This document shows positions 240 through 64,000 of a DNA stretch of 64,000 bases, in pieces (position 1 is the stretch's first letter; every line of letters begins with the position of its first letter). The notes beneath the pieces were generated by a model that saw nothing but the letters and a program-made list of their open reading frames with translations, was not told where the DNA came from and did no database searches. The position numbers and the translations under genes are program-made. Source of the stretch: a phage; the NCBI GenBank assembly GCA_024449565.1, contig GCA_024449565.1_4810.1, one strand, 5' to 3'.

Positions 240-475
240 GAACTTTAACCGAACTCGATGTTTTGAAAGACGTTGCAGCGGCGCTGGGCGTTGAAGTCTC
301 TGAAAAGTCGACACTGGGTGCTCTGCGTCGTGATTTACTCGAAGCCGTCGACCGCAACGATTTTGATCGTAAGTGTTTGCAAAAGAAGATTCGACAGGCA
401 GTAAGGGCGGGTAAGCGATTCCGTGCCAGGTCGTTTGCCGCAAGAAAGCTCGACCTTCAGCACGGAATGCTTTAA
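236..475 (+). CDS. hypothetical protein (79 aa)
   Basis: ORF track; AAGGGG purine-rich RBS upstream of ATG; convergent with terminase gene. Confidence 0.45.
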   Translation: MRTLTELDVLKDVAAALGVEVSEKSTLGALRRDLLEAVDRNDFDRKCLQKKIRQAVRAGKRFRARSFAARKLDLQHGML

Positions 476-478
476 TTG

Positions 479-1939
479 TTAAAGGTTAGAGAAGAAGCCG
501 GATGCTGCAACAATTGGTTTCATCAACGCCATGATTGCTGCGTCCGCTTTGTTAGGCGATTTGACTCCACGCTTTGCCATATCCTTTTTCGATTCAACTT
601 TAAACTTACCAAGCACAGACGTGTCTTTGCGCGGCGCTGACATCTCAAAAAGAAATGTCTCAATTTCTTCCGCAGACCAAGCAGGAATCCCAAGTTCTGG
701 AATGCCGTCTGTGTCGATGGAAATCAGCTCATCAGTCGGGTATACGGCCTGCCCTGTTGCATACTCATATGTCTTCCTGAATCGTTCGGCAATCTCAGTC
801 CATTTTTGCGCTTTTATGTTTGCGAAATGGTCTTTATTGAGTATTTCAACGTGTGGTAACTCAAGGAAGACGTCATCAGGATCATCAACAGCACCTTGCG
901 CGTTGAACGCATTAAATTCGATTCTTGGGAATGTTGGATTTTCATGGATTGCATACTCATTAAGCTCATCAAATTTTGAACCAGCAAATGCACCAACACC
1001 GATGGCGTCATAGGTAATTGATGCGCCGAATGTTAATGCATCTTTCCAAACTCCGCTTGCGGACTTAAGCAATTCATCTTCCAGACCTTCCCATGTCTTG
1101 ATGCCGCGCAATACGTTGCCCGTGACAAATGCTGTGGCGTTTAAGTCGTCGCCGTCGTCCGCCACGTCGAAGCCTATACGGTTAGACCCTGACAAGCTCC
1201 ATCCCAGCGTAGGGTGTTTGTGGAGGTTTAGCGCGGCTTTGACGAATGCACGGTTGATTACAGATTTGTCGCCGCCAGTCTTCGGAACGCCGCCATAAAC
1301 GTGCTCTGCCTTTTTTGGGTCGCGCTCGTACATGCCTGCGATAACGTCCAGCATTGTTTGCGACAAGAATGGATTATCTTGCCAGTTTATCTTTTTAACA
1401 ATGGCATTCTTCGGCGGTCGCATAACAAAGTTCTGGTAGACAAAATCGGCCTCTTCATCAGGGTTAAAGATGATCCATATTTCTGACCCTTCTTTACGGA
1501 TTGTTGGCTCAATAATGTCCCACTGTTCTTCAGTAAGCGCGTGCGCTTCTTCCAGCCAAAGTACGTCAACACCTTCCGTTGATTTGATTTCATCAACATT
1601 ACGTGCGATACCATAAAATAGAAATTCAGATTTAGTTCTTTTATGTTCGATAGAGTTCTTTAATAAATTGAACTCATCTTTGAAATCAGAAATTTCTATT
1701 TTGTCTTTTAATAGAGTATATACAGATTCAGAAATCTTGTTCTGGAATTGTCGAACGCAAAGGAATTTTAATTTGAAGTTTGCCGCCAAATAAATAGCAA
1801 AACCAGCGGCATCATGCGATTTGGAAGATGCACGACCGCCGTATATTACTTTGTATCGCGCTTTCGTCTTCCAGACTTCTTTTAAAGCAGGATTCAACTG
1901 GTACATGACTTTCCAATTATGTGTTAGTATTTTATTCAT
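479..1939 (-). CDS. terL: terminase large subunit
   Basis: 486 aa; N-terminal ATPase region (KVIYGGRASSKSHD Walker A-like, VLWLEEAH Walker B-like) and C-terminal nuclease-like acidic region typical of phage large terminases. Confidence 0.8.
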   Translation of the reverse strand: MNKILTHNWKVMYQLNPALKEVWKTKARYKVIYGGRASSKSHDAAGFAIYLAANFKLKFLCVRQFQNKISESVYTLLKDKIEISDFKDEFNLLKNSIEHKRTKSEFLFYGIARNVDEIKSTEGVDVLWLEEAHALTEEQWDIIEPTIRKEGSEIWIIFNPDEEADFVYQNFVMRPPKNAIVKKINWQDNPFLSQTMLDVIAGMYERDPKKAEHVYGGVPKTGGDKSVINRAFVKAALNLHKHPTLGWSLSGSNRIGFDVADDGDDLNATAFVTGNVLRGIKTWEGLEDELLKSASGVWKDALTFGASITYDAIGVGAFAGSKFDELNEYAIHENPTFPRIEFNAFNAQGAVDDPDDVFLELPHVEILNKDHFANIKAQKWTEIAERFRKTYEYATGQAVYPTDELISIDTDGIPELGIPAWSAEEIETFLFEMSAPRKDTSVLGKFKVESKKDMAKRGVKSPNKADAAIMALMKPIVAASGFFSNL

Positions 1940-7039: not shown

Positions 7040-7069
7040 TGGGTGGATGTTGCTTTAACCGTGAATCGT

Positions 7070-7096
7070 GGGTCGCTTAGTGCGGCCCTTTATTTT
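7070..7096 (+). terminator. intrinsic terminator after the 6659-7039 gene
   Basis: gggtcgc/gcggccc stem (one G-U pair), loop ttagt, then tttattttg. Confidence 0.5.
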
Positions 7097-7098
7097 GC

Positions 7099-7174
7099 CT
7101 GCCGCGCAGGAGTGTACTGCCGCGCAGGAGTGTACTGCCGCGCAGGAGTGTACTGCCGCGCAGGAGTGTACTGC
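7099..7174. repeat. tandem repeat, 18-bp unit ctgccgcgcaggagtgta x4 plus partial fifth
   Basis: Four perfect head-to-tail copies at 7099-7170 followed by ctgc; each unit is a near-palindrome. Confidence 0.9.
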
Positions 7175-7551
7175 AAATTTCCTGTGGGTACAAAATAGTA
7201 CGGTACTGTCTAGGACTTTTTCTTTGAAAAGTTAGTGGACCAAATGTGTCGTATTTTGATTAGTGTACCGCAAATTCCATCAAGTAGCAAAACGCACCAA
7301 AAGACCCATGCCCTAAAAACCACACGAACGCAATAATCAATCGCCGTTACAGTTTCCAGCGTTACAATTAGAAAGCGAATGATTCGATGCATAATAATAT
7401 GAAGCATAATGATTCGAAAGCTAATGGTTGCGCGTAGGATGATATCGGGAGGGATTATTCGAGATGCGTGTAATTTCGCATGCGTACTATTTTCGGGCGA
7501 AGGGTCGGCATATTCTTCGTTTTAGCTCGGAACGAAGGGAAAGTTTTGCGC

Positions 7552-7628
7552 CTTTATAAAACAACGACTTACGCGACCCGCCTTAACGGTCCGATATAGG
7601 TGTCTATATAAAACAAGGACTTACGCGA
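7552..7628. repeat. two 25-bp direct repeats (ctttataaaacaacgacttacgcga / ctatataaaacaaggacttacgcga)
   Basis: Copies at about 7552-7576 and 7604-7628, 2 mismatches, inside a ~570-bp non-coding stretch. Confidence 0.7.
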
Positions 7629-7750
7629 TGTTCTCCATTTAACGTAATACCTGTTATGCGAACTAAGGCGCATCTCGACGAAGATTGTGCGACGACGAAG
7701 GGAAGGATAAAGGAGTTTTCGCGTAGGAGCTCATCGAGATAGGGACGAAG

Positions 7751-7772
7751 AAAAGCCGCGACTAAGCGCGGC
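7751..7772 (-). terminator. terminator-like hairpin downstream of the 7793-8083 minus-strand gene
   Basis: gccgcg/cgcggc 6-bp stem, loop actaag; T-run on the minus strand (aaaa on plus at 7751-7754). Confidence 0.4.
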
Positions 7773-7792
7773 CTATTAGTAACGGAAGGGTA

Positions 7793-8083
7793 TTATAAGG
7801 AGACGATTTTAAAGAAAGAGTAACGGCCTTCGCCTTCGGATACCGCGATATATTCGCCGCCGAACTCCGTAGCAAAATAAACCTTGCCTTCGATAGTAAC
7901 GCGGAAGGTAGAAATATCTTCCTCTTCGAGTTCCGTAAATTCGCTAAAATCGATAGGACTATGAAGCTCCTCGATAGTCGCATCTACGTTAAAGAGATAA
8001 ACGTTTTTAAGTTTTTCGCCAAATACGTTAGAGTTTTCGGAAGTTTCGACGCGAGCGGAACGGATAGCGGCCAAAGTAATCAT
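7793..8083 (-). CDS. small acidic protein, paralog family member 1 (96 aa)
   Basis: AGGAGA RBS; CpG-rich codon usage; aligns with the 8719-9003 product (IRxAxVE, VYxxNVDxTIE, C-terminal GxxYFxAxE). Confidence 0.6.
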   Translation of the reverse strand: MITLAAIRSARVETSENSNVFGEKLKNVYLFNVDATIEELHSPIDFSEFTELEEEDISTFRVTIEGKVYFATEFGGEYIAVSEGEGRYSFFKIVSL

Positions 8084-8190
8084 AATATTCTCCTAGTTAG
8101 TCGGGAGGGTAGCGACCTATTCGCTACCTCATCCCCTCTCGATATAAAACATTATAGTCTTAGTGTACGAAGAAGTAAAGCACTTTTTCG
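8084..8190 (-). promoter_or_regulatory. upstream control region with AGTGTACGAAGAAGTAAAG element
   Basis: 19-bp element at 8162-8180 recurs at 8560-8578 (direct) and 8621-8639 (inverted, 2-3 mismatches); ctcgata(t/c)aaa also shared with the 8494-8560 region. Confidence 0.4.
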
Positions 8191-8493
8191 TTATTCTGCG
8201 ATAAAATATTTATAAGCTTTATCGCCTTCTACGTCGATATACTCGACGATAATTAACGCTTCGCCGCGCGGCGTAACCGTCTCGATAAGGGTAACGGCTT
8301 CGTCGTCGGTCTTCGCGAAGCGGATTGCGCTACGTTCGGCGTACTTAATATCATCGAAGGAAAGGCCGACGAAAGCGACCGCGCGGACCTTAATAATGGT
8401 AGATTCTAGTTCCGCGTTAACGGCAGCGATAAGAGAGCGAACGGTTAAACGGTCTTCGTCGTAAGTAAGGATAGAAGAGATTAAAGTAGTCAT
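8191..8493 (-). CDS. small acidic protein, possible distant paralog (100 aa)
   Basis: Start moved to ATG at 8493 with GGAG RBS (MTTLISSIL...); the longer track ORF ends at 8550. Confidence 0.55.
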   Translation of the reverse strand: MTTLISSILTYDEDRLTVRSLIAAVNAELESTIIKVRAVAFVGLSFDDIKYAERSAIRFAKTDDEAVTLIETVTPRGEALIIVEYIDVEGDKAYKYFIAE

Positions 8494-8718
8494 AATAAAA
8501 CTCCCGATGCTAGTAGAAGGAAGGGCCATCACCCGTCTCGATACAAACAAGTATACGCGAGTGTACGAAGAAGTAAAGAAAAAAGATAAAATAATTTATC
8601 TCATTTTTATCGAAAAAGTGCTTTACTTTTTTCTACACTATATTATAATGTACTCATATCGGGACGGGATGAGTTAACGAATAGGTCGTTAACGCCCGTC
8701 GAGAACTAGGAGTTTAAA
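8494..8718. promoter_or_regulatory. divergent intergenic control region
   Basis: Lies between divergent starts 8493 (minus) and 8719 (plus); contains inverted pair of the AGTGTAC...GTAAAG element and a tattataat -10-like box. Confidence 0.45.
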
Positions 8719-9003
8719 ATGGCTATTCTTAACGTTTCTTCCATCCGTAACGCTATCGTCGAGAACTACGGCGTAAAACAAATTTTATCCGAAGTTTACG
8801 CCGCGAACGTAGACCAAACTATCGAGGCGGGTGGGGTAACGGTCGCCGAGGCTTTTAAACTTTACGCGGCGCTACCGGAATCGGACCGCGAAGCCTTCGA
8901 AGTAAACGTTAACGGATACTTCTTCGAAGCGGTCGAAATCGGTAACATCTTACTCGTTATGGGCGAAGAAGAATTTGATACCTTCTCCCTCGTCGAAGCG
9001 TAA
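8719..9003 (+). CDS. small acidic protein, paralog family member 2 (94 aa)
   Basis: AGGAG RBS; CpG-rich codon usage; homologous to the 7793-8083 product. Confidence 0.6.
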   Translation: MAILNVSSIRNAIVENYGVKQILSEVYAANVDQTIEAGGVTVAEAFKLYAALPESDREAFEVNVNGYFFEAVEIGNILLVMGEEEFDTFSLVEA

Positions 9004-9083
9004 GAGAGGATTTTTAGAGCGTCGTGCGCGGCGCTTTAATAAAATTCTTTCGCGCCTAGCGCCCTAACAAATAGGAGTTCATT

Positions 9084-9710
9084 ATGGTTAGCTTAAATCG
9101 TTTCTCGACTAGCGGCGACGTTATCGCAACTAAGACCGCCGACCTCGTTGCATTTTATAATGCAAATTCAGGTTCGAAGCCGATTAAAAAATTTGCGGAC
9201 CGCCGGACCGCCGAGACTCGCGTAATCGCGCTAATCGAGTCCTTAAACGCGCTCGATGAGCCGTCCAACGAATCGCCAATCCCCGACGCGAAGCCGCGCG
9301 AGGAAGTGTCCAGCGATGTAAAAACGCATAAGGCGCGTGCGGTCGTTAAAAAGGCAGAGCCGACGCAGGAAGAACTCGACGCGATGAGCGATGAAGAGTA
9401 TGAAGCCTTCGTTAAGAGCGGCTTAAACGATAGTGCAAATTGCGTAGTGCAAAATGGAACTCCTTCCCATCGCCGTTCGAATAGCGAAGGTATTGCAAAA
9501 AGTTGGGACAATAAGGAAGTGGCGCAAAAGCGTCTCACCCGTAACGGCGTTATGGTCGAGGGTGTAGGAGAGTTCAAATCGGTCCGCGCAGCTTTCGCCG
9601 CGCTGGGATTACCGGATAGCAAGCACATTCGCTTCCGTATGAAGCTTAAGGAAGCTGGGCGCTTGAACTTCGAGTTCGGCAACAAGTCCTTTACCTTCCA
9701 GATTATCTAA
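9084..9710 (+). CDS. hypothetical protein (208 aa)
   Basis: AGGAG RBS; CpG-rich codon usage; two internal copies of the TAGTGCAAA(T/A) motif. Confidence 0.6.
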   Translation: MVSLNRFSTSGDVIATKTADLVAFYNANSGSKPIKKFADRRTAETRVIALIESLNALDEPSNESPIPDAKPREEVSSDVKTHKARAVVKKAEPTQEELDAMSDEEYEAFVKSGLNDSANCVVQNGTPSHRRSNSEGIAKSWDNKEVAQKRLTRNGVMVEGVGEFKSVRAAFAALGLPDSKHIRFRMKLKEAGRLNFEFGNKSFTFQII

Positions 9711-9760
9711 TCGAATGGCGGCCCTTCGGGGTCGCTTTTCATAGTGCAAATTGGTGGCTT

Positions 9761-10024
9761 ATGAATACGCTTATTCTCATCGCTACGTTGTCCATCGGAA
9801 GTGGTCGCACCTTATCCCTTTATGACCATAGTGCAAATTGCGCCTATCCTACGCGCGTTGCGGCGATAGTTAATAGTGCAAATAAGATGCTATTCGAGAC
9901 TTGCTGGAGGGTCGATAACGAGAAAGGTCGGGTAGTCTTAGGCTATAGTGCAAATCTGCTGGTGGAGTCGTTCGATTGGACGGTTGAAGGTCGTAAATTG
10001 TTACGTAAAGTGACTAAAAGATGA
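9761..10024 (+). CDS. questionable ORF (87 aa) carrying three in-frame motif copies
   Basis: Weak RBS; three in-frame AGT-GCA-AAT (Ser-Ala-Asn) copies of the motif; may be non-coding. Confidence 0.3.
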   Translation: MNTLILIATLSIGSGRTLSLYDHSANCAYPTRVAAIVNSANKMLFETCWRVDNEKGRVVLGYSANLLVESFDWTVEGRKLLRKVTKR

Positions 10025-10085
10025 CTTATAATAATACACTTTCTAACGCGTTTATGGTTACAACCTTCCCCGTCGTATTACCGAT

Positions 10086-10125
10086 GGCCCTAGAAGTGGA
10101 GAAAATGTGTTCTAGGGCCGTTTTA
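10086..10125 (+). terminator. terminator-like hairpin (10-bp perfect stem) between convergent genes
   Basis: ggccctagaa ... ttctagggcc with 14-nt loop, then gtttta; immediately followed by a motif copy. Confidence 0.45.
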
Positions 10126-10138
10126 TAGTGCAAATTGG

Positions 10139-10612
10139 CTAGTGGCGGGAGAATTGCTCTCCTTCTTTGGCCGCCTCTCCAAAATCCTTGTAGAAATCAT
10201 CCATGGAACGGCCCATTTTACTATTGCCATTTTCATCAATCATCGTGATGCCGTAGATGATATTCAGTTCACGAATGGCATTAAGTTTGGCTGATGCCGC
10301 GACTTCTGGATCACGCACAAGCTTCACTAGATTGTGGATGGAACTCTTTACGCTCCACAATTCCTTCAATGGCATCTCTTCCATACGCTTTTTGTAGCGC
10401 ATCTTGTAGTACGGATTGCGCTGAGTGCACAGGATTCGCTGGCCAGTGTAGTTATCGGTCGCAACCTCCATGCCAAATACTAGTGCAAAAGCTGCGCGCA
10501 TGTCATGGCCTTGAATAACAAGGTCAATGAACTCATCGAATAATGCCTGATTATGCTCTGCAAATCGCGGGTCTTCAAAGTCTTCAGGCATTGCTACATA
10601 ATCTTGACTCAT
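10139..10612 (-). CDS. hypothetical acidic protein (157 aa)
   Basis: Start moved to internal ATG at 10612 (MSQDYVAMPEDFED...); two motif copies abut the start on the other strand. Normal (non-island) composition. Confidence 0.5.
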   Translation of the reverse strand: MSQDYVAMPEDFEDPRFAEHNQALFDEFIDLVIQGHDMRAAFALVFGMEVATDNYTGQRILCTQRNPYYKMRYKKRMEEMPLKELWSVKSSIHNLVKLVRDPEVAASAKLNAIRELNIIYGITMIDENGNSKMGRSMDDFYKDFGEAAKEGEQFSRH

Positions 10613-10693
10613 AGTGCAAATCCCATAGTGCAAATTAATAGTGTGAATTATACAATGAATGAACATTATATTCAAGTGCAGATTGATGTTCAA

Positions 10694-11453
10694 ATTGGCT
10701 GTAAACGTACATAAATCATAGTGCTAAATGAATAGCGGACCGTGATGCGTGGTGTACTGTTTGATACGTATAAAAGAAATCCATCCCTTTCGCCGCTTGC
10801 TATGCAAATCAATGACTTAGCCGCTGCTGGCTGGTTGAAGCGTATCATGACGTATCATCCGTATTGCCGCAAGTCTTTGTTTTTACTTATATCTTACGGA
10901 TAATACGTATAAATATAAGTTCAGTATAAGTATGAGGATGTAGAAAAAAATTAATTTAAATTAATTCAAAATGGAGTTAATTGTTTTTTTCAAAGTTGTA
11001 TAAAGTATAGCGGCGACGCGTATCATCCGTATCATCCGTAAGATGTACCATTGAACCCAGTCGCGGCGCACCATAGAAGTGTGTGGAGTGAACTACGGAT
11101 AGGTCCAAATCTTACGTCATTATACGTTTAAATTCTATGCGTAAGGTTAGCCAGCTAACTATATCTCCTTTTTAATTTCAAGCGGCAATCCCAGAGACGG
11201 CGCACCATGTACACAAACACACCACGGTACACGCTCCAATTCCTAGTGATTTCCTCTCCAATCCCACAACACCACAGTACAATAATCTTCCAAAACCGCA
11301 CACATATTCAAGACGCAAAATTCACGTCACAATCCTCACTACCAACGACACTCTAATAGATTTACACAAATCAATCGATTTATCCGATAATAAAGACTCA
11401 CATTCCACAGGCAAATAAAAAGGGCCAATCGGCCCTCTTAACATTAATCATAA
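10694..11453. other. 760-bp non-coding region with iteron-like repeats, AT-rich dyad and strand-skewed CA-rich tract
   Basis: No ORF of 60 aa or more on either strand; CGTATCATCCGTA-type repeats at 10841-10870 and 11018-11040; AT-rich tract 10943-10991; CCCAGnnnCGGCGCACCAT at 11056-11074 and 11189-11207; G-poor tract about 11208-11400. Confidence 0.5.
11408..11437 (-). terminator. intrinsic terminator downstream of the 11454-11906 gene
   Basis: gggcc/ggccc stem with T-run on the minus strand (ctttttatttgcctg). Confidence 0.5.
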
Positions 11454-11906
11454 TTAAAATATAAAATTCTTCACTCCAAGCCTTTTAAATTCTTTCCTTA
11501 ACATCATATTAAACTTCTTCAATTTAGTTTTATTCATCCTTAGCGGATTGTAGGTGAACACCTTTTCTATTACTTCCTCACTCATTTTTGAGCGCATATT
11601 AGTTGCGTAATAGTTCTTGAACGTATAAATAAGGTAATTTGCTTCAAGCTTAAGTTCAATTACTTCCTCCGATTCATCAAGCTCAAGCAATCCTCTTTGC
11701 GTAAGAATATCTCTTAATATATCCTGACATTTCTTGCAATCACCTTTGCCTAAAAGCGAGTCGATGTAATCGCCGCTGACGCGCTCATCACCGAAGTATG
11801 TTGCGCGACCACAAAGGCTTTGCACTTCTCCTTCGTCAAAGTAGTGCGCGCGATGAGCCCACTTCGGTATGGCCCAACCAGCGGCGATAAGCTTATTACC
11901 CATCAC
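11454..11906 (-). CDS. hypothetical protein (150 aa)
   Basis: ORF track; 4-bp overlap with upstream gene. Confidence 0.55.
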   Translation of the reverse strand: MMGNKLIAAGWAIPKWAHRAHYFDEGEVQSLCGRATYFGDERVSGDYIDSLLGKGDCKKCQDILRDILTQRGLLELDESEEVIELKLEANYLIYTFKNYYATNMRSKMSEEVIEKVFTYNPLRMNKTKLKKFNMMLRKEFKRLGVKNFIF

Positions 11907-12502
11907 CCCTCCTTAACGACCCGATAAGCGATGATGTCTGAACCATAGCCAAGCAACGTTCTGTTCCAACCGATGCAGTCAGAAAAGACATCGTTAGCGA
12001 CAATGCCGTCTCTGTATTTGACGTCTACCCGTTTCCCAGGCACCGGATTCTCACCGCCATGCCACGCTGTCCAAGCATCACCATCATTGCTCTTGACAAC
12101 ACGATAAGCAGCAATGTCGCTGCCATTTAACGCTCCTATATGGCCCCAGTGAAGATGGTCAGAAAGTCTTGATAAAACTTTATCAGCCCCATCACGCAGC
12201 TTGTATTCAACAATCTCGCCAGGCACCGGATTCAAGCCACCAAACCACACATTCCACGCTTCTTCCTTCGGCGCATCCTCATCCACGCCTATAGTAGCAA
12301 CGACGTCGTGCAACTGCTTAACAAGCGCCGACGCATCACGGACCTGTGAGCGTAATGCAACCAACTCGCGTTGCGCTTCACTGTATTTCGCTTCCAGCGC
12401 GGCATAGTCCTCATATTCAACATAGCCGCCTTCATCATCCTTTACAACTTCGCAGGTGCAAGCGTGCTGCGTGCAATAATCAACATCGTAACGTTGTATC
12501 AT
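11903..12502 (-). CDS. hypothetical protein with two copies of a GGxNPVPG...DIIAYRVV repeat domain (199 aa)
   Basis: Internal ~55-aa duplication; N-terminal coiled-coil-like segment. Confidence 0.6.
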   Translation of the reverse strand: MIQRYDVDYCTQHACTCEVVKDDEGGYVEYEDYAALEAKYSEAQRELVALRSQVRDASALVKQLHDVVATIGVDEDAPKEEAWNVWFGGLNPVPGEIVEYKLRDGADKVLSRLSDHLHWGHIGALNGSDIAAYRVVKSNDGDAWTAWHGGENPVPGKRVDVKYRDGIVANDVFSDCIGWNRTLLGYGSDIIAYRVVKEG

Positions 12503-13980: not shown

Positions 13981-14480
13981 TATTCCTCCACGACGCGATA
14001 AGCAATGATGTCATACCCCGATTCTTTATGACTCCAACGGCATTTTTCGGATTCTGAAGGAAAAATCGTCTTTGTGCCTTGCCTTATTGCCACGCGGACT
14101 AATTTACCAGGCACAGGATTGCAGCCGCCAGCCCATTCAATCCAGCCGTCACTCGCCATCGGTTTATCCTTCAAGCACTCATGCTTCTCACCGATGTGGG
14201 CGACAGGTTGACGGCTTCCGTGATAGAATGCAAGCGCAACATCATGGCTTGGGTGAGTATTAGAAAGGCAAATGTCATCACACCAAAGCTCCATGGTGCG
14301 CGACTTAAGGGTCATGATATTGATATACCACTCGATGGTGTAGTGGTCATTAAGGTTGCCAACGATATAGAAGTTGCGACAAAACACCTTATCGCTATCT
14401 GACTTCTCGCGACGATAGCTTTTGATTGCGCCTGCCTTTACGGCCATTTCCAGTACTGCTTCGAGTTGTTCGATTTTCAT
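13980..14480 (-). CDS. hypothetical protein with one C-terminal GGxNPVPG...DIIAYRVV repeat domain (166 aa)
   Basis: C-terminal 55 aa match the repeat in 11903-12502. Confidence 0.55.
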   Translation of the reverse strand: MKIEQLEAVLEMAVKAGAIKSYRREKSDSDKVFCRNFYIVGNLNDHYTIEWYINIMTLKSRTMELWCDDICLSNTHPSHDVALAFYHGSRQPVAHIGEKHECLKDKPMASDGWIEWAGGCNPVPGKLVRVAIRQGTKTIFPSESEKCRWSHKESGYDIIAYRVVEE

Positions 14481-15477: not shown

Positions 15478-15516
15478 TCTCCTTTGCTTGATGAACTAAG
15501 TATAATACAGGCAAAT

Positions 15517-15545
15517 AAAAAGGCAAGCATTTAGCTCACCTTTTT
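15517..15545 (-). promoter_or_regulatory. 29-bp repeat element: imperfect terminator hairpin with sigma70-like promoter (copy A)
   Basis: Minus strand reads aaaaaggtgagctaaatgcttgccttttt then tgcctgTATTATACT; identical 28-29 bp at 16770-16797. Confidence 0.45.
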
Positions 15546-15548
15546 GAA

Positions 15549-16718: not shown

Positions 16719-16769
16719 AATCACCTCACTTGTTCGTCTTGATGAAAAGAGTATAATTATTGATAAAAG

Positions 16770-16797
16770 AAAAGGCAAGCATTTAGCTCACCTTTTT
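16770..16797 (-). promoter_or_regulatory. 29-bp repeat element: terminator hairpin plus promoter (copy B)
   Basis: Same sequence as 15517-15545, followed on the minus strand by AATTATACT -10-like box. Confidence 0.45.
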
Positions 16798-16802
16798 GAT
16801 AT

Positions 16803-62367: not shown

Positions 62368-63767
62368 GCTTCAAATGCTTCGTCAGTTGCTGCAGAATCC
62401 GCAGCGGCCTTTTGTTTTGCGACTACACGCTGTTTTTGACCGTGTTCAACGCCACGCAGATAATTATCCACCACGTCAAACTCAGCACCATCAACGCACT
62501 TCAAGCCTAACTTTTTAGCGCCATATTTCGCTACGGACTTGGAGTCCATAGTTGCATGATCAAAGGCACCAACAACTTTAGACAGGCGCTGGTAGAGGCT
62601 ATTCTTACGAGCAGAATCAGCGTAGAAAGCAGCAACTGCTGAATCAGATGCCATTGAGTGTTCCCCTTTTGCTGGACCTGGCGACGCTTTCGCCGCTTTT
62701 GTCGGTTTGTCATCTTTTTCGACCGAAGCCCCCTTTACGTTGCTGTTTTGCAGGCCGCTAACCACATCTTCAGCTTTGTCGCAAGGTGATACATCTTCAG
62801 CCTTGACTTCAACTTCTTCGTCTTTGACTTCGGCTTCAACTTCTTCTTCATCACCTACCGCGCCACCTTTCAGTTTTGCAATAAGTGCTTCGATTTGGCT
62901 GATCAATTGCGGAAGTTCGCCGCCAGCGTTAGATTCAGTTTCAACTTCAAACTTCTCTTCACCTTCTGGGGTTTCTTCTGCTTCTGCCTTGACTTCTGGA
63001 TCAACCATTACTTCTTCACGATTTTCGGTTGAGTCCTTCTCTTCTGCTTTCACTTCAACTTCGTCCTGATGAGCAGCTTCAGTACTCTCTTCATTCAGAA
63101 ATTGTTCGAGCGCAGGGATCAGTGATTTCAGCTGTTCAACAGCATTATCACGCGCTTTACCTTTTAACGGTTTTAGCATGTCTAAATCCTCGTTGGATGG
63201 TGTTACAGTCGTCAAACAAAGATGGTCAAAGCAACGACCATCCAGCACCCGTGCACCTGGTACTCGACCAACGTCCACGAGAGCAATGTGGTTGCCGCGA
63301 AGAGTTGTCTGCACCACTTCATACGGCTGCCCGTCAAACTCTCCAGACTGTATGATGAATTCACAGTCATATCCCAAAGACAAGTCAACCTTTCCAGAAT
63401 CAATGGCCTTCTTCAGACGACGGCTAAACACTTTAAGGTCGCCGCGCATCCATGGCTTGTCATAATAAACATTGCCAGTCAGAACGCCATCAACTCCATA
63501 CTCTTCGGGTGCTGTGTTATCCTCATCACCTTCGAATCCAGAAAGCATTTCGTGATTGTCGATGAAAGGGATATTTTTGAATGAATCTATCGCTTCGGGG
63601 TCTTTCACCGCTGACTCTGGGCGATAAACTTTTACGATGCGATTCGGATCACCATCAAGTCCAACCTGACCTGCAGAATAATCAAAAATGCCAAATGACG
63701 AAATGGGACAACCCACAATCATCAAGAATCCATTTTTGTCAATTTCGCGTGCCGTTTGCATTCGCAT
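62349..63767 (-). CDS. putative prohead scaffold/protease fusion protein
   Basis: 472 aa; N-terminal globular domain, highly acidic Glu/Val/Lys-rich middle typical of scaffolds, C-terminal domain; first gene of structural operon in the window. Confidence 0.45.
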   Translation of the reverse strand: MRMQTAREIDKNGFLMIVGCPISSFGIFDYSAGQVGLDGDPNRIVKVYRPESAVKDPEAIDSFKNIPFIDNHEMLSGFEGDEDNTAPEEYGVDGVLTGNVYYDKPWMRGDLKVFSRRLKKAIDSGKVDLSLGYDCEFIIQSGEFDGQPYEVVQTTLRGNHIALVDVGRVPGARVLDGRCFDHLCLTTVTPSNEDLDMLKPLKGKARDNAVEQLKSLIPALEQFLNEESTEAAHQDEVEVKAEEKDSTENREEVMVDPEVKAEAEETPEGEEKFEVETESNAGGELPQLISQIEALIAKLKGGAVGDEEEVEAEVKDEEVEVKAEDVSPCDKAEDVVSGLQNSNVKGASVEKDDKPTKAAKASPGPAKGEHSMASDSAVAAFYADSARKNSLYQRLSKVVGAFDHATMDSKSVAKYGAKKLGLKCVDGAEFDVVDNYLRGVEHGQKQRVVAKQKAAADSAATDEAFEAWLKGE

Positions 63768-64000
63768 CCACCCTCAAATAAGTATTGTGTATTATATCTA
63801 ATGAAAAAAACTTAGGCAAACAATAATTATGGTTTGAATATGTATAACAACCGATATAGCCGCGCCTTAATTAGTGTGATACGGATGATACGGATAAAAT
63901 GAGGCGTATTTTTATCCGTATCGGTGTATAAGCCGCGCTATCACTGGTGTGCTACGGATGATACGGATGATACGGATACTTTTCATATATAAGAGTTTAT
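63768..64000. promoter_or_regulatory. upstream region of the structural operon with TACGGATGATACGGA iteron-like repeats
   Basis: Repeats at about 63878-63896 and 63954-63980 are reverse complements of the CGTATCATCCGTA repeats at 10841-11040; AT-rich. Confidence 0.45.

What the first reader, a model, noticed from the sequence alone, without database searches (positions are those of the whole stretch)
10694..11453. 760-bp non-coding region with iterons, AT-rich dyad and strand-skewed CA-rich tract (origin or packaging-site candidate)
This is the largest non-coding region in the window. It contains CGTATCAT(G/C)CGTA iteron-like repeats at 10841-10870 and 11018-11040; an AT-rich dyad-symmetric tract at 10943-10991 (aaaaaaattaatttaaattaatt...ttaattgtttttttc); two copies of CCCAGnnnCGGCGCACCAT at 11056-11074 and 11189-11207; and a roughly 200-bp tract that is almost G-free on the plus strand (about 11208-11400). 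Iterons flanking an AT-rich unwinding element is the classic layout of a replication origin. A pac or cos site, or a long structured leader RNA, are alternatives.
Basis: partly seen in the sequence, partly recalled or inferred. Interest (0 to 1): 0.6.

Follow-up and report, generated by a model that had tools for sequence, protein, structure and literature searches.

The report
Phage genome end beside small terminase
This non-coding stretch holds the physical left end of a Wifcevirus phage genome, cut in the middle of an AT-rich, repeat-flanked element just upstream of the small terminase gene, so it is most likely the DNA-packaging cut site rather than a proven replication origin.

Summary
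The features are real and non-random. The window is a Wifcevirus (E. coli myophage, about 95% identical to WFH, ECML-117, Mansfield). Read-based terminus calls from three laboratories, covering four relatives (WFH, WFC, Mansfield, Ro157lw), all map the start of a 3.5-3.7 kb direct terminal repeat (DTR) to window 10972|10973. The DTR is window 7300-10972.

The first gene inside it (10612..10139, minus strand) is the small terminase (E = 1.8e-45 to phage E217 TerS, PDB 7UXE). So the region is the concatemer junction and packaging cut site lying 360 nt upstream of terS, laid out like lambda cos-Nu1.

New details:
- The motifs form a roughly 500-bp degenerate palindrome with the cut at its axis.
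- Conservation collapses 10 bp beyond the cut, yet the short motifs persist in four divergent versions.
- A paralogous repeat/AT-rich element sits upstream of the head-maturation-protease gene. This two-locus arrangement, with genus-specific repeats, recurs in Pantoea phage Kyle and in Pbunavirus Ab27.

What binds the 9-mers (TerS, a replication initiator or a regulator) is not settled. The origin reading is not excluded, but it lacks an adjacent initiator gene and a skew minimum. The terminus itself is already published for relatives; the architecture appears undescribed.

The parts
7300..10972 (-). Direct terminal repeat (one copy in this window; 3,673 bp). In virion orientation, the minus strand of the window, it starts at 10972 and ends at 7300.
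   Evidence: WFH record: exact 3,701-bp repeat whose first base aligns to 10972 and last base to 7300. Mansfield record, opened at the PhageTerm DTR boundary, ends at 10973, has terS at 361..831 and a 3,673-bp DTR. Ro157lw PhageTerm DTR of 3,533 bp fits the same two boundaries.
10972..10973 (.). Inferred left genome terminus / concatemer-junction cut. In virion orientation: ...CAATTAACTCC|ATTTTGAATTAATTT...
   Evidence: Mapped by homology from four relatives and three laboratories. The sequence is identical to WFH for more than 40 nt on each side. Not measured for this phage itself.
10943..10991 (.). AT-rich dyad (86% A+T) containing the cut. Innermost arms are GA(A/G)TTAAT and T(A/G)TTTTTTTC.
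   Evidence: Conserved in 12 phages up to 10982, after which conservation collapses.
10841..10864 (+). 9-mer array on the DTR side (CGTATCATG A CGTATCATC CGTAT).
   Evidence: Nearly invariant in 12 phages.
10895..10910 (-). Inverse 9-mer copies on the DTR side (TACGGATAATACGTAT).
11019..11041 (+). 9-mer array on the unique side (CGTATCATC x2 + CGTAA), 47-69 nt from the cut.
   Evidence: Kept in all four divergent versions of the unique side, within about 5 nt of the same distance.
11094..11126 (-). Inverse 9-mer-like copies on the unique side (TACGGATA; TACGTCATTATACG).
11056..11074 (+). CCCAGTCGCGGCGCACCAT, copy 1 of CCAG-N3-CGGCGC.
   Evidence: The motif is retained in the Ro157lw and RCIP0319 versions, and one of the two copies in the Bas98/99 version.
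11190..11208 (+). CCCAGAGACGGCGCACCAT, copy 2.
11208..11400 (+). G-poor, C/A-rich tract (G 8.3% on the plus strand), variable in sequence between lineages.
   Evidence: the extreme of the window. G is 7-9.5% in 11 of the 12 phages compared; the Bas100 figure (14.5%) comes from a mis-anchored cut position and is not usable. An RNA from the plus strand would be essentially unstructured.
11413..11435 (-). Intrinsic terminator of the upstream operon (GGGCC GATT GGCCC followed by a T run on the minus strand).
   Evidence: Read from the sequence. Annotated as a terminator at the equivalent position in WFH.
11454..11906 (-). Last gene of the long operon that ends at the junction (150 aa, phrog_2358, unknown function).
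10807..10819 (+). Perfect IHF core consensus AATCAATGACTTA (a lead only).
   Evidence: 6 in the window against 4.1 expected. Invariant in 12 phages.
10647..10693 (-). Two overlapping near-consensus sigma-70 promoters (TTGAAC-17-TATAAT and TTGAAT-17-TATAAT) reading into terS.
   Evidence: Invariant in 12 phages.
10139..10612 (-). Small terminase gene (terS, 157 aa), the first gene inside the DTR, starting 361 nt from the terminus.
   Evidence: Profile against the PDB: 7UXE (phage E217 TerS), E = 1.8e-45. Foldseek top hit 7uxe_A, E = 7.9e-6. Annotated 'terminase small subunit' in Mansfield.
63766..64000 (.). Paralogous repeat/AT-rich element ('locus 2'), cut off by the window end. It is the intergenic region upstream of the head-maturation-protease gene.
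   Evidence: Full length (about 415-422 nt) seen in Bas99 and WFH. At least 94.8% conserved in 29 records.

Best explanation
The region is the junction between the right end of the unique sequence and the direct terminal repeat of a Wifcevirus genome. In other words, it is the site where replicated concatemers are cut to make the left end of the packaged DNA.

The cut falls at 10972|10973, in the spacer of an AT-rich dyad. That dyad is the axis of a roughly 500-bp degenerate palindrome built from short motifs: 9-mers ATCCGTATC in direct and inverse arrays, CCAG-N3-CGGC, and CACCACGG. Two strong sigma-70 promoters and the small terminase gene follow within 361 nt, the same order as cosN-cosB-Nu1 in phage lambda.

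Shown:
- the position of the terminus (by homology to four phages with read-based termini);
- the identity of terS;
- the non-randomness, symmetry and selective retention of the motifs.

Inferred:
- A ring-shaped TerS, possibly with a host bending protein, binds the 9-bp-phased arrays on both sides.
- This bends the AT-rich centre and presents it to the large terminase nuclease.
- A second cut at 7300|7299, together with copying of the 3.67-kb segment, gives each virion a repeat at both ends.

The G-poor tract and the terminator belong to the variable unique-side spacer; their role is not established.
For: Terminus position. The WFH exact DTR starts at the base aligned to 10972. [quoted passage not shown] The Ro157lw PhageTerm DTR of 3,533 bp equals the distance from the same base to the record end. 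terS starts at 360-361 in records opened at the DTR.

terS identity..

Same offset in other genera. terS lies 357 nt (Kyle), 346 nt (MyoSmar) and about 443 nt (MTx) from the DTR start.

Motif statistics. 8 matches against 0.89 expected.

Dyad layout. 12 collinear seeds reading outward from the cut, against 5.2 +/- 1.1 (maximum 8) in shuffles. The direct orientation is at chance. Repeated in Bas99 (12 vs 5.7) and Ro157lw (11 vs 6.3).

Conservation. The DTR side plus 10 nt beyond the cut is conserved in 12 phages. The rest of the unique side exists in four non-alignable versions that still keep the 9-mers at about +45-70, with the CCAG-N3-CGGC and CACCACG motifs kept in most of them.

Kyle. The exact 3,603-bp DTR boundary also lies in an A/T-run tract flanked by its own 9-bp-phased repeats.

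Precedents from general knowledge. Repeats flanking a cleavage site next to terS occur in lambda cosB/cosN, P1 pac (hexamers on both sides) and SPP1 pacL/pacC/pacR.
Against: No reads for this phage were available, so the terminus is inferred by homology.

No binding data exist. E217 TerS, the solved homologue, showed no appreciable DNA binding in vitro (review PMC9611059).

A near-identical 45-nt 9-mer block plus AT-rich tract exists at a second locus that is not a terminus. The element alone therefore cannot specify cutting.

The paired elements persist in Pbunavirus. Members of that genus are reported as headful, circularly permuted and without read-start peaks, so the family-wide role of the element is not terminus formation as such.

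MyoSmar's terminus has no such repeats or dyad.

The dyad test is not significant in two Wifcevirus versions (RCIP0319, Bas100).
Confidence: 0.6

Rival explanations
1. The repeat/AT-rich element is a replication origin. A phage initiator or helicase binds the inverted 9-mer arrays and opens the AT-rich centre. The two paralogous loci would act like SPP1 oriL/oriR or P4 ori/crr. In the DTR genera the left terminus is made at, or because of, one of these origins, for example by a nick or fork that starts copying the repeat.
For: Inverted arrays flanking an AT-rich centre are the classic bidirectional-origin layout (HSV oriS, archaeal ORB-DUE-ORB, SaPI ori; general knowledge). The dyad symmetry is significant.

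There are two paralogous copies per genome in three genera, with genus-specific repeats.

The element is kept in Pbunavirus, whose members are reported to lack fixed ends.

In Pbunavirus Ab27 the element lies directly downstream of a large 'DNA primase' gene.
Against: No initiator gene is adjacent in Wifcevirus; the neighbours are terS and small ORFs with no Pfam match, three of which match only PHROG families of unknown function.

Cumulative GC skew has a local maximum here. The minimum lies near 24 kb, between the divergent helicase and primase units. For Pbunavirus Banzai the published skew minima lie in the replication-gene region, not at terS. Skew in phages mostly follows transcription, so this evidence is weak.

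The second copy lies in the middle of the late structural operon.
Confidence: 0.25
2. The 9-mer arrays are operator or enhancer sites for a phage transcription regulator that controls the promoters of terS and of the head-protease/scaffold/capsid operon. The terminus merely happens to lie in the same upstream region.
For: Both loci lie upstream of near-consensus sigma-70 promoters of late-function genes: TTGAAC-17-TATAAT before terS, and TTGCCT-17-TATAAT before the head protease gene, read from the sequences.

Short repeats in mixed orientation with 9-bp phasing are typical of ribbon-helix-helix and HTH repressor arrays (general knowledge).

Pbunavirus 14-1 has promoters that need phage factors.
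Against: The arrays lie 150-350 nt upstream of the terS promoter and on both sides of the physical end. On linear virion DNA, the unique-side half is therefore not connected to the left-end copy of terS.

The exact placement of the cut at the axis of symmetry would be a coincidence.

CCAG-N3-CGGCGC is not a genome-wide promoter motif.
Confidence: 0.12
3. The region encodes a structured leader or non-coding RNA (a GU-rich transcript from the minus strand or a CA-rich one from the plus strand).
For: A weak promoter-like site (TTGCCT-16-TATTAT, 11414-11387, minus strand) follows the terminator. The minus-strand fold has z = -2.0. The G depletion is conserved.
Against: No Rfam family is hit at gathering threshold. 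The only weak hit, mcrA at 16 bits against a threshold of 57.6, is noise.

The plus-strand RNA is essentially unstructured, z = -0.7.

The tract is not alignable between close lineages, so no structure is conserved.

The 49-aa ORF at 11207-11356 loses its ATG in ECML-117, FEC19, kaset and WFH.
Confidence: 0.03

Closest known systems
Long direct-terminal-repeat genomes of Wifcevirus and relatives (Mansfield, WFC/WFH, Ro157lw; Serratia MyoSmar/MTx; Pantoea Kyle), the 'T5-like long DTR' class of PhageTerm
   Same: Same genus and the same boundaries to the base. A 3.5-3.7 kb DTR holding terS and small genes of unknown function.
   Different: The published notes give only the repeat length. None of the papers I could read describes the sequence architecture of the boundary, the second locus or the conservation break.
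Phage lambda cos (cosQ-cosN-cosB, followed by Nu1)
   Same: The order is cut site, then repeated small-terminase sites with a bending-protein site, then the small terminase gene within a few hundred bp. There is partial two-fold symmetry around the cut.
   Different: Lambda makes 12-nt cohesive ends and no terminal repeat. Its R sites lie on one side only. Here the repeats lie on both sides, the product is a 3.67-kb DTR, and binding is untested.
P1 pac and SPP1 pac (pacL-pacC-pacR)
   Same: Clusters of short repeats on both sides of a central cleavage region, recognised by the small terminase.
   Different: Those phages package by headful from a single pac cut and yield permuted genomes. Here both ends are fixed.
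T7/T3 concatemer junction (terminal repeat flanked by the SRL/SRR repeat arrays, strong early promoters near the left end)
   Same: An exact DTR, arrays of short repeats next to the repeat boundary, and strong host promoters reading inward from the left end.
   Different: The T7 repeat is 160 bp, the arrays are not dyad-symmetric about the cut, and the terminase genes are far from the end.
Two-locus iteron systems: SPP1 oriL/oriR, P4 ori/crr, and T4 gp16 binding to homologous sites in genes 16 and 19
   Same: One DNA-binding protein is served by two homologous repeat-containing loci kilobases apart. In T4 that protein is the small terminase.
   Different: None of these places a genome terminus inside one of the two loci. 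Which protein binds here is unknown.
Pseudomonas phage E217 small terminase (PDB 7UXE)
   Same: The adjacent gene product is a clear homologue (E = 1.8e-45, about 39% identity by Foldseek). In both phages terS lies far from terL.
   Different: E217 is a Pbunavirus, a genus reported to package by the headful mechanism without fixed ends. Its TerS showed no appreciable DNA binding in vitro.

Membership tests
Terminase cut/recognition site at a DTR boundary (concatemer junction) | Coincides with the physical end of virion DNA | tested here: met
   By homology only. Boundaries from WFH, WFC, Mansfield and Ro157lw all map to 10972|10973. This phage's own reads were not available.
Terminase cut/recognition site at a DTR boundary (concatemer junction) | Lies in or next to the small terminase gene | tested here: met
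   terS (E = 1.8e-45 to 7UXE) starts 361 nt from the cut. A similar offset is seen in Kyle, MyoSmar and MTx.
Terminase cut/recognition site at a DTR boundary (concatemer junction) | Cut-site core conserved among relatives | tested here: met
   About 30 nt on the DTR side and 10 nt on the unique side are conserved in 11 of 12 phages (Bas100 carries a few substitutions). Conservation drops abruptly after 10982.
Terminase cut/recognition site at a DTR boundary (concatemer junction) | Repeats are bound by the small terminase | not testable with these tools
   Repeats are present and non-random, but there are no binding data. E217 TerS did not bind DNA appreciably in vitro.
Iteron-type replication origin | Repeated short sites next to an AT-rich unwinding element | tested here: met
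   9-mer arrays on both sides of an 86% A+T tract.
Iteron-type replication origin | Cognate initiator gene adjacent or overlapping | tested here: not met
   The neighbours are terS and small ORFs with no Pfam match, three of which match only PHROG families of unknown function. Replication genes lie 8-30 kb away. In Pbunavirus Ab27, however, a primase gene is adjacent.
Iteron-type replication origin | Cumulative GC-skew minimum / strand switch | tested here: not met
   There is a local maximum at 10-11 kb and a minimum near 24 kb. This is a weak test, because skew follows gene direction here.
Iteron-type replication origin | Supports initiation of replication | not testable with these tools
   Needs marker-frequency, 2D-gel or plasmid assays.
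Structured non-coding RNA / leader | Match to a known RNA family or a conserved structure | tested here: not met
   No Rfam hit at gathering score. Only a 16-bit chance hit at E up to 1. z = -2.0 and -0.7. The tract is not alignable between lineages.
tRNA-derived attachment site (considered because of ...GGCGCACCA) | tRNA gene or 3' tRNA fragment, integrase nearby | tested here: not met
   ARAGORN finds no tRNA in the window. The relatives carry no integrase annotation in the records examined, and the genus is isolated and used as lytic phages.

The most novel reading that the evidence does not exclude
The pair of paralogous, dyad-symmetric repeat/AT-rich elements is a family-wide bipartite cis system. 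One copy lies at the genome end beside terS and one upstream of the head-protease operon. Both are conserved, with genus-specific repeats, in Wifcevirus, Kylevirus and Pbunavirus.

The system could link packaging to replication or to capsid gene expression. Two examples: small-terminase-mediated synapsis of the two loci, or origin-primed copying of the repeat. If so, it would explain how long exact terminal repeats are made, a step the literature calls unknown (quoted from Casjens and Gilcrease).
Probability: 0.15. Interest if true: 0.7.

Novelty: new variant of a known kind. Interest (0 to 1): 0.45.

Why it matters
How phages with long exact terminal repeats (T5-like, several kb) cut and duplicate their ends is not understood. 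Wifcevirus and Pbunavirus phages are used or considered for therapy and biocontrol.

Knowing the exact end, the adjacent small terminase gene and the candidate recognition motifs helps in several ways. It allows correct genome orientation and annotation: most Wifcevirus records call terS 'hypothetical' and open the genome elsewhere. It supports the design of synthetic or rebooted genomes. It also gives a concrete set of sites to mutate.

The second, paralogous locus, conserved across three genera including one reported to package by the headful mechanism, is an unexpected handle on whether the element serves packaging, replication or late gene control.

Tried and rejected
tRNA-like attachment site. 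The motif ...GGCGCACCA suggested this, but there are no tRNAs and the phage is lytic.

Known RNA family. None found.

Coding potential of the gap. Small ORFs annotated in some records (Bas98-101, kaset) are not conserved. The ATG of the 49-aa ORF is absent in close relatives.

CCAG-N3-CGGCGC as a phage-specific promoter. This was prompted by the CTGGG-core motif of Pbunavirus 14-1. There are no further exact copies in 64 kb, and one-mismatch hits are at chance level.

Chi-site protection of the end. One correctly oriented Chi lies at 9958-9965, but three sites in the window is not above chance.

DnaA-box reading of TCATCCGTA. It fits only a very permissive consensus recalled from memory and differs from TTATCCACA at two positions I recall as important. 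Not pursued.

Pfam and PHROG searches of eight neighbouring proteins gave no function until the PDB profile search identified TerS.

Right versus left DTR boundary. No similarity between the two regions.

MyoSmar. Its junction has no repeats, no dyad and no paralogue within the 30 kb I fetched; the head region was not fetched.

Papers and supplements. The E217 terminase paper (PMC10026623) and the supplements of the 14-1 transcriptome paper are not held.

Full report
**What the window is.** The 861 nt around the finding match 29 phage records, all Wifcevirus-type E. coli/Shigella myophages such as WFH, ECML-117, FEC19, Mansfield and the BASEL phages Bas98-101. The best matches are about 95% identical. 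These are 66-72 kb relatives of the Pseudomonas PB1-like phages.

**Checking the observation.** Every feature is present.
- The interval 10694-11453 is exactly the largest stretch of the window without an ORF of at least 60 aa. The next two are 7040-7792 and 63768-64000+, and both turn out to be related to this story.
- CGTATCATCCGTA with up to 2 mismatches occurs 8 times against 0.89 expected. Seven of these fall in two clusters: this region and 63880-63974.
- The AT-rich tract is 86% A+T.
- The 'G-free' tract has 16 G in 193 nt. It is not G-free, but it is the most G-depleted and most skewed segment of the 64 kb.
- The two CCAG-N3-CGGCGC copies are the only exact ones in the window.

**The genome end lies inside the AT-rich tract.** Three laboratories determined termini for close relatives from sequencing reads.
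- Korf et al. report about 3.7-kb terminal repeats for WFC and WFH. In the WFH record the repeat is exact (3,701 bp). Its first base aligns to window 10972 and its last to 7300.
[quoted passage not shown] The record's last base aligns to 10973, and the first gene starts at 361, as it would from 10972.
- Liao et al. report a PhageTerm DTR of 3,533 bp for Ro157lw. This equals the distance from the same base to the end of that record, and the right boundary again maps to 7300.

The left end of the packaged DNA is therefore, by homology, ...CAATTAACTCC|ATTTTGAATTAATTT... on the minus strand. The DTR is window 7300-10972. The finding straddles the junction between the end of the unique sequence (10973-11453) and the start of the repeat (10694-10972).

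**The adjacent gene is the small terminase.** The first gene in the repeat (10612..10139, 157 aa) has no Pfam hit and only a PHROG family of unknown function.
- A profile of seven homologues matches one solved structure, the small terminase of Pseudomonas phage E217 (7UXE), at E = 1.8e-45.
- A predicted model has the same top hit.
- Mansfield annotates the gene as small terminase; most other Wifcevirus records call it hypothetical.
- tblastn finds the family in 359 phage records. In records opened at a DTR boundary, terS starts 346-443 nt from the end: Wifcevirus 360-361, Kyle 357, MyoSmar 346, MTx about 443.
- Two overlapping near-consensus sigma-70 promoters (10693-10647, minus strand) read into terS and are invariant in 12 phages.

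The order is therefore: cut site, repeats, promoters, terS. This parallels cosN-cosB-Nu1 of lambda (general knowledge).

**Architecture around the cut.** Reading outward from the cut on both sides, 12 collinear 8-mers (up to 1 mismatch) correspond, against 5.2 +/- 1.1 (maximum 8) in 200 dinucleotide shuffles. The same test in direct orientation is at chance.

Outward from the cut, the matching elements run in this order: GA(A/G)TTAAT, a T7 run, (T/C)ATCCGTA, TACGGA / TACGTCAT(G/T)ATACG, CAGC...AGCGGC and CACCACGG. The whole of about 10740-11227 is thus a degenerate palindrome with the cut in its central spacer. The arms are too diverged to form a cruciform. The symmetry is one of protein-binding sites (inference).

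The test is also positive in Bas99 (12 vs 5.7) and Ro157lw (11 vs 6.3). It is not significant in RCIP0319 or Bas100, and the pattern is absent in Serratia phage MyoSmar.

**Conservation pattern.** In an alignment of 12 Wifcevirus phages, the DTR side is almost invariant up to the cut, and 10 nt beyond it (GGAGTTAATT). The sequence then breaks into four versions that cannot be aligned with each other. These versions nevertheless keep several features:
- the ATCCGTATC-ATCCGTAAG array about 45-70 nt from the cut (all four);
- CCAG-N3-4-CGGC copies and CACCACG motifs (most versions);
- inverse 9-mer copies;
- a terminator;
- a G content of 7-9.5%.

Retention of short motifs in otherwise replaced sequence argues that they are functional.

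**A second, paralogous element.** The 9-mers recur at 63858-63977. In relatives this is a 415-422-nt intergenic region upstream of the head-maturation-protease gene. It carries a 45-nt block, CTTACGGATGATACGGATGATACGCGTYGCCGCKATACTTTATA, that differs by two bases from the unique-side arm at the terminus. An AT-rich stretch with the same TAATTTAA...TTTTTTT ending follows, then inverse 9-mers. This locus is at least 94.8% identical in all 29 records. It lacks the cut-core sequence.

The same arrangement exists in other genera, each with its own repeats.
- Pantoea phage Kyle (TerS 44% identical, exact 3,603-bp DTR) has its boundary in ...AAAAAAATGATAAATTC|ACTTAAAAAAAATAC. The boundary is flanked by GGTTATT/AATAACC (9-bp phase) and ATATCCGAA. 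A 158-nt stretch spanning the cut is 74% identical (E = 1e-19) to the region upstream of its head protease gene, the only paralogue in 50 kb.
- In Pbunavirus Ab27, 306 nt upstream of terS is 68% identical (E = 2e-20) to the region upstream of its head protease gene.

Members of Pbunavirus are reported to be headful and circularly permuted, without read-start peaks. The paired element is therefore older and more general than the fixed terminus.

**What this means for mechanism.**

Firmly supported: the region contains the left genome end and the terS control region, and the cut lies at the axis of a conserved, symmetric array of short motifs.

Most likely, but inferred: the arrays are the terminase recognition site. 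Repeats on both sides of a cut next to terS are the pattern of lambda cos, P1 pac and SPP1 pac. A ring-shaped TerS (E217 TerS is a decamer) could contact 9-bp-phased sites. A perfect, invariant IHF core site lies at 10807-10819 (weak evidence).

Against this reading: E217 TerS did not bind DNA appreciably in vitro. The element also exists at a locus that is not cut, and in Pbunavirus, a genus reported to lack fixed ends.

**The origin reading remains a serious rival.** Inverted initiator sites around an AT-rich centre, present in two copies, resemble HSV oriS, archaeal origins, SaPI ori, and SPP1 oriL/oriR or P4 ori/crr (general knowledge). In Ab27 a large primase gene abuts the element. Three points count against it:
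- No initiator gene is adjacent in Wifcevirus.
- Cumulative GC skew peaks here rather than dipping. The minimum is near 24 kb, between the divergent helicase and primase units.
- The published skew analysis of a Pbunavirus places the candidate origins in the replication module.

**Other rivals.** A third possibility is that the arrays are regulator sites for the terS and head-operon promoters. A structured RNA is unlikely.

**The G-poor tract.** Its sequence is replaced between lineages but its composition is kept. In MyoSmar, Kyle and Ab27 a comparable C/A-rich, G-poor tract lies on the other side of the end, between the terminus and the terS promoter.

In all cases the strand read 5'->3' away from the cut is the G-poor one. 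The polarity relative to the cut is thus conserved even though the side is not; this is my own reading of those sequences. A C-rich, G-poor, unstructured RNA is what a Rho-utilisation site looks like. An insulating role against transcription leaving the junction is possible but untested.

**Novelty and verdict.** The terminal repeat and its length are published for relatives, and terS is annotated in one record. 'Packaging-site candidate' therefore resolves to a known kind of feature.

In the papers I could search and read, I found no description of the following:
- the cut at the axis of a 500-bp degenerate palindrome;
- the sharp conservation break 10 nt beyond the cut;
- the motif retention across replaced sequence;
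- the paralogous element upstream of the head protease gene conserved across three genera.

I rate this a new variant of a known kind, of moderate interest.

Noticed in passing
window 9431-10635 (also 9157 with one mismatch; related TACTGCAAAT at 7169): ATAGTGCAAAT occurs 8 times exactly, always on the plus strand, and only inside 1.2 kb of the DTR (9 hits against 1.67 expected in 64 kb). Two tandem copies overlap the terS start codon. The motif keeps one polarity relative to the genome end whatever the gene direction. Function unknown.
   Followed up: partly
window 7299|7300 and 7040-7792: The right DTR boundary lies in the second-largest non-coding gap. It has no 9-mers and no similarity to the left boundary. 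A motif (C/A)(G/A)GTACACTAATCA(A/G)AAT lies 25-45 nt outside the repeat in both this phage and Pantoea phage Kyle, making it a candidate signal for the right-end cut.
   Followed up: partly
window 7099-7188: An 18-bp tandem repeat, CTGCCGCGCAGGAGTGTA, x3.5, lies 110-200 nt outside the right DTR boundary. Copy number differs from WFH, where the alignment breaks at this point.
   Followed up: no
window 10139-10612 (minus strand): The small terminase gene is labelled 'hypothetical protein' in most Wifcevirus GenBank records (including WFH, WFC, Ro157lw and Bas98-101) and lies inside the terminal repeat, so virion DNA carries two copies. BASEL records are opened at the large terminase gene instead.
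   Followed up: yes
L016 1-160 (MyoSmar), L020 160-300 (Kyle), L024 300-600 (Ab27): Each relative has a C/A-rich, G-poor tract between its genome end (or record start) and the terS promoter. [quoted passage not shown]
   Followed up: partly
window 9958-9965: A Chi site (GCTGGTGG) about 1 kb from the left end, oriented to be active for RecBCD entering at that end. Only 3 Chi sites in the window (1.26 expected), so this may be chance.
   Followed up: partly
window 12036-12079, 12219-12262, 14107-14150: A 44-nt direct repeat family inside minus-strand genes. The 199-aa protein (11903-12502) contains an internal duplication (AWNVWFGGLNPVPGE / AWTAWHGGENPVPGK), and a further copy lies in a gene 2 kb away.
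   Followed up: no
window 8161-8193 and 8608-8640: A 33-nt inverted repeat (88% complementary), 414 nt apart, inside the DTR, flanking the minus-strand ORF 8191-8550.
   Followed up: no
window 15513-15547 and 16765-16799: Two 94%-identical 35-nt copies of AAAAAGGCAAGCATTTAGCTCACCTTTTTGA, a repeated element with a partial inverted repeat and a T run (possibly a terminator), in the small-gene operon.
   Followed up: no
OP172789.1 (ECO71P1) record start: This relative's record starts at the equivalent of window 10907, 65 nt inside the DTR rather than at the boundary. This is probably an arbitrary assembly break.
   Followed up: no
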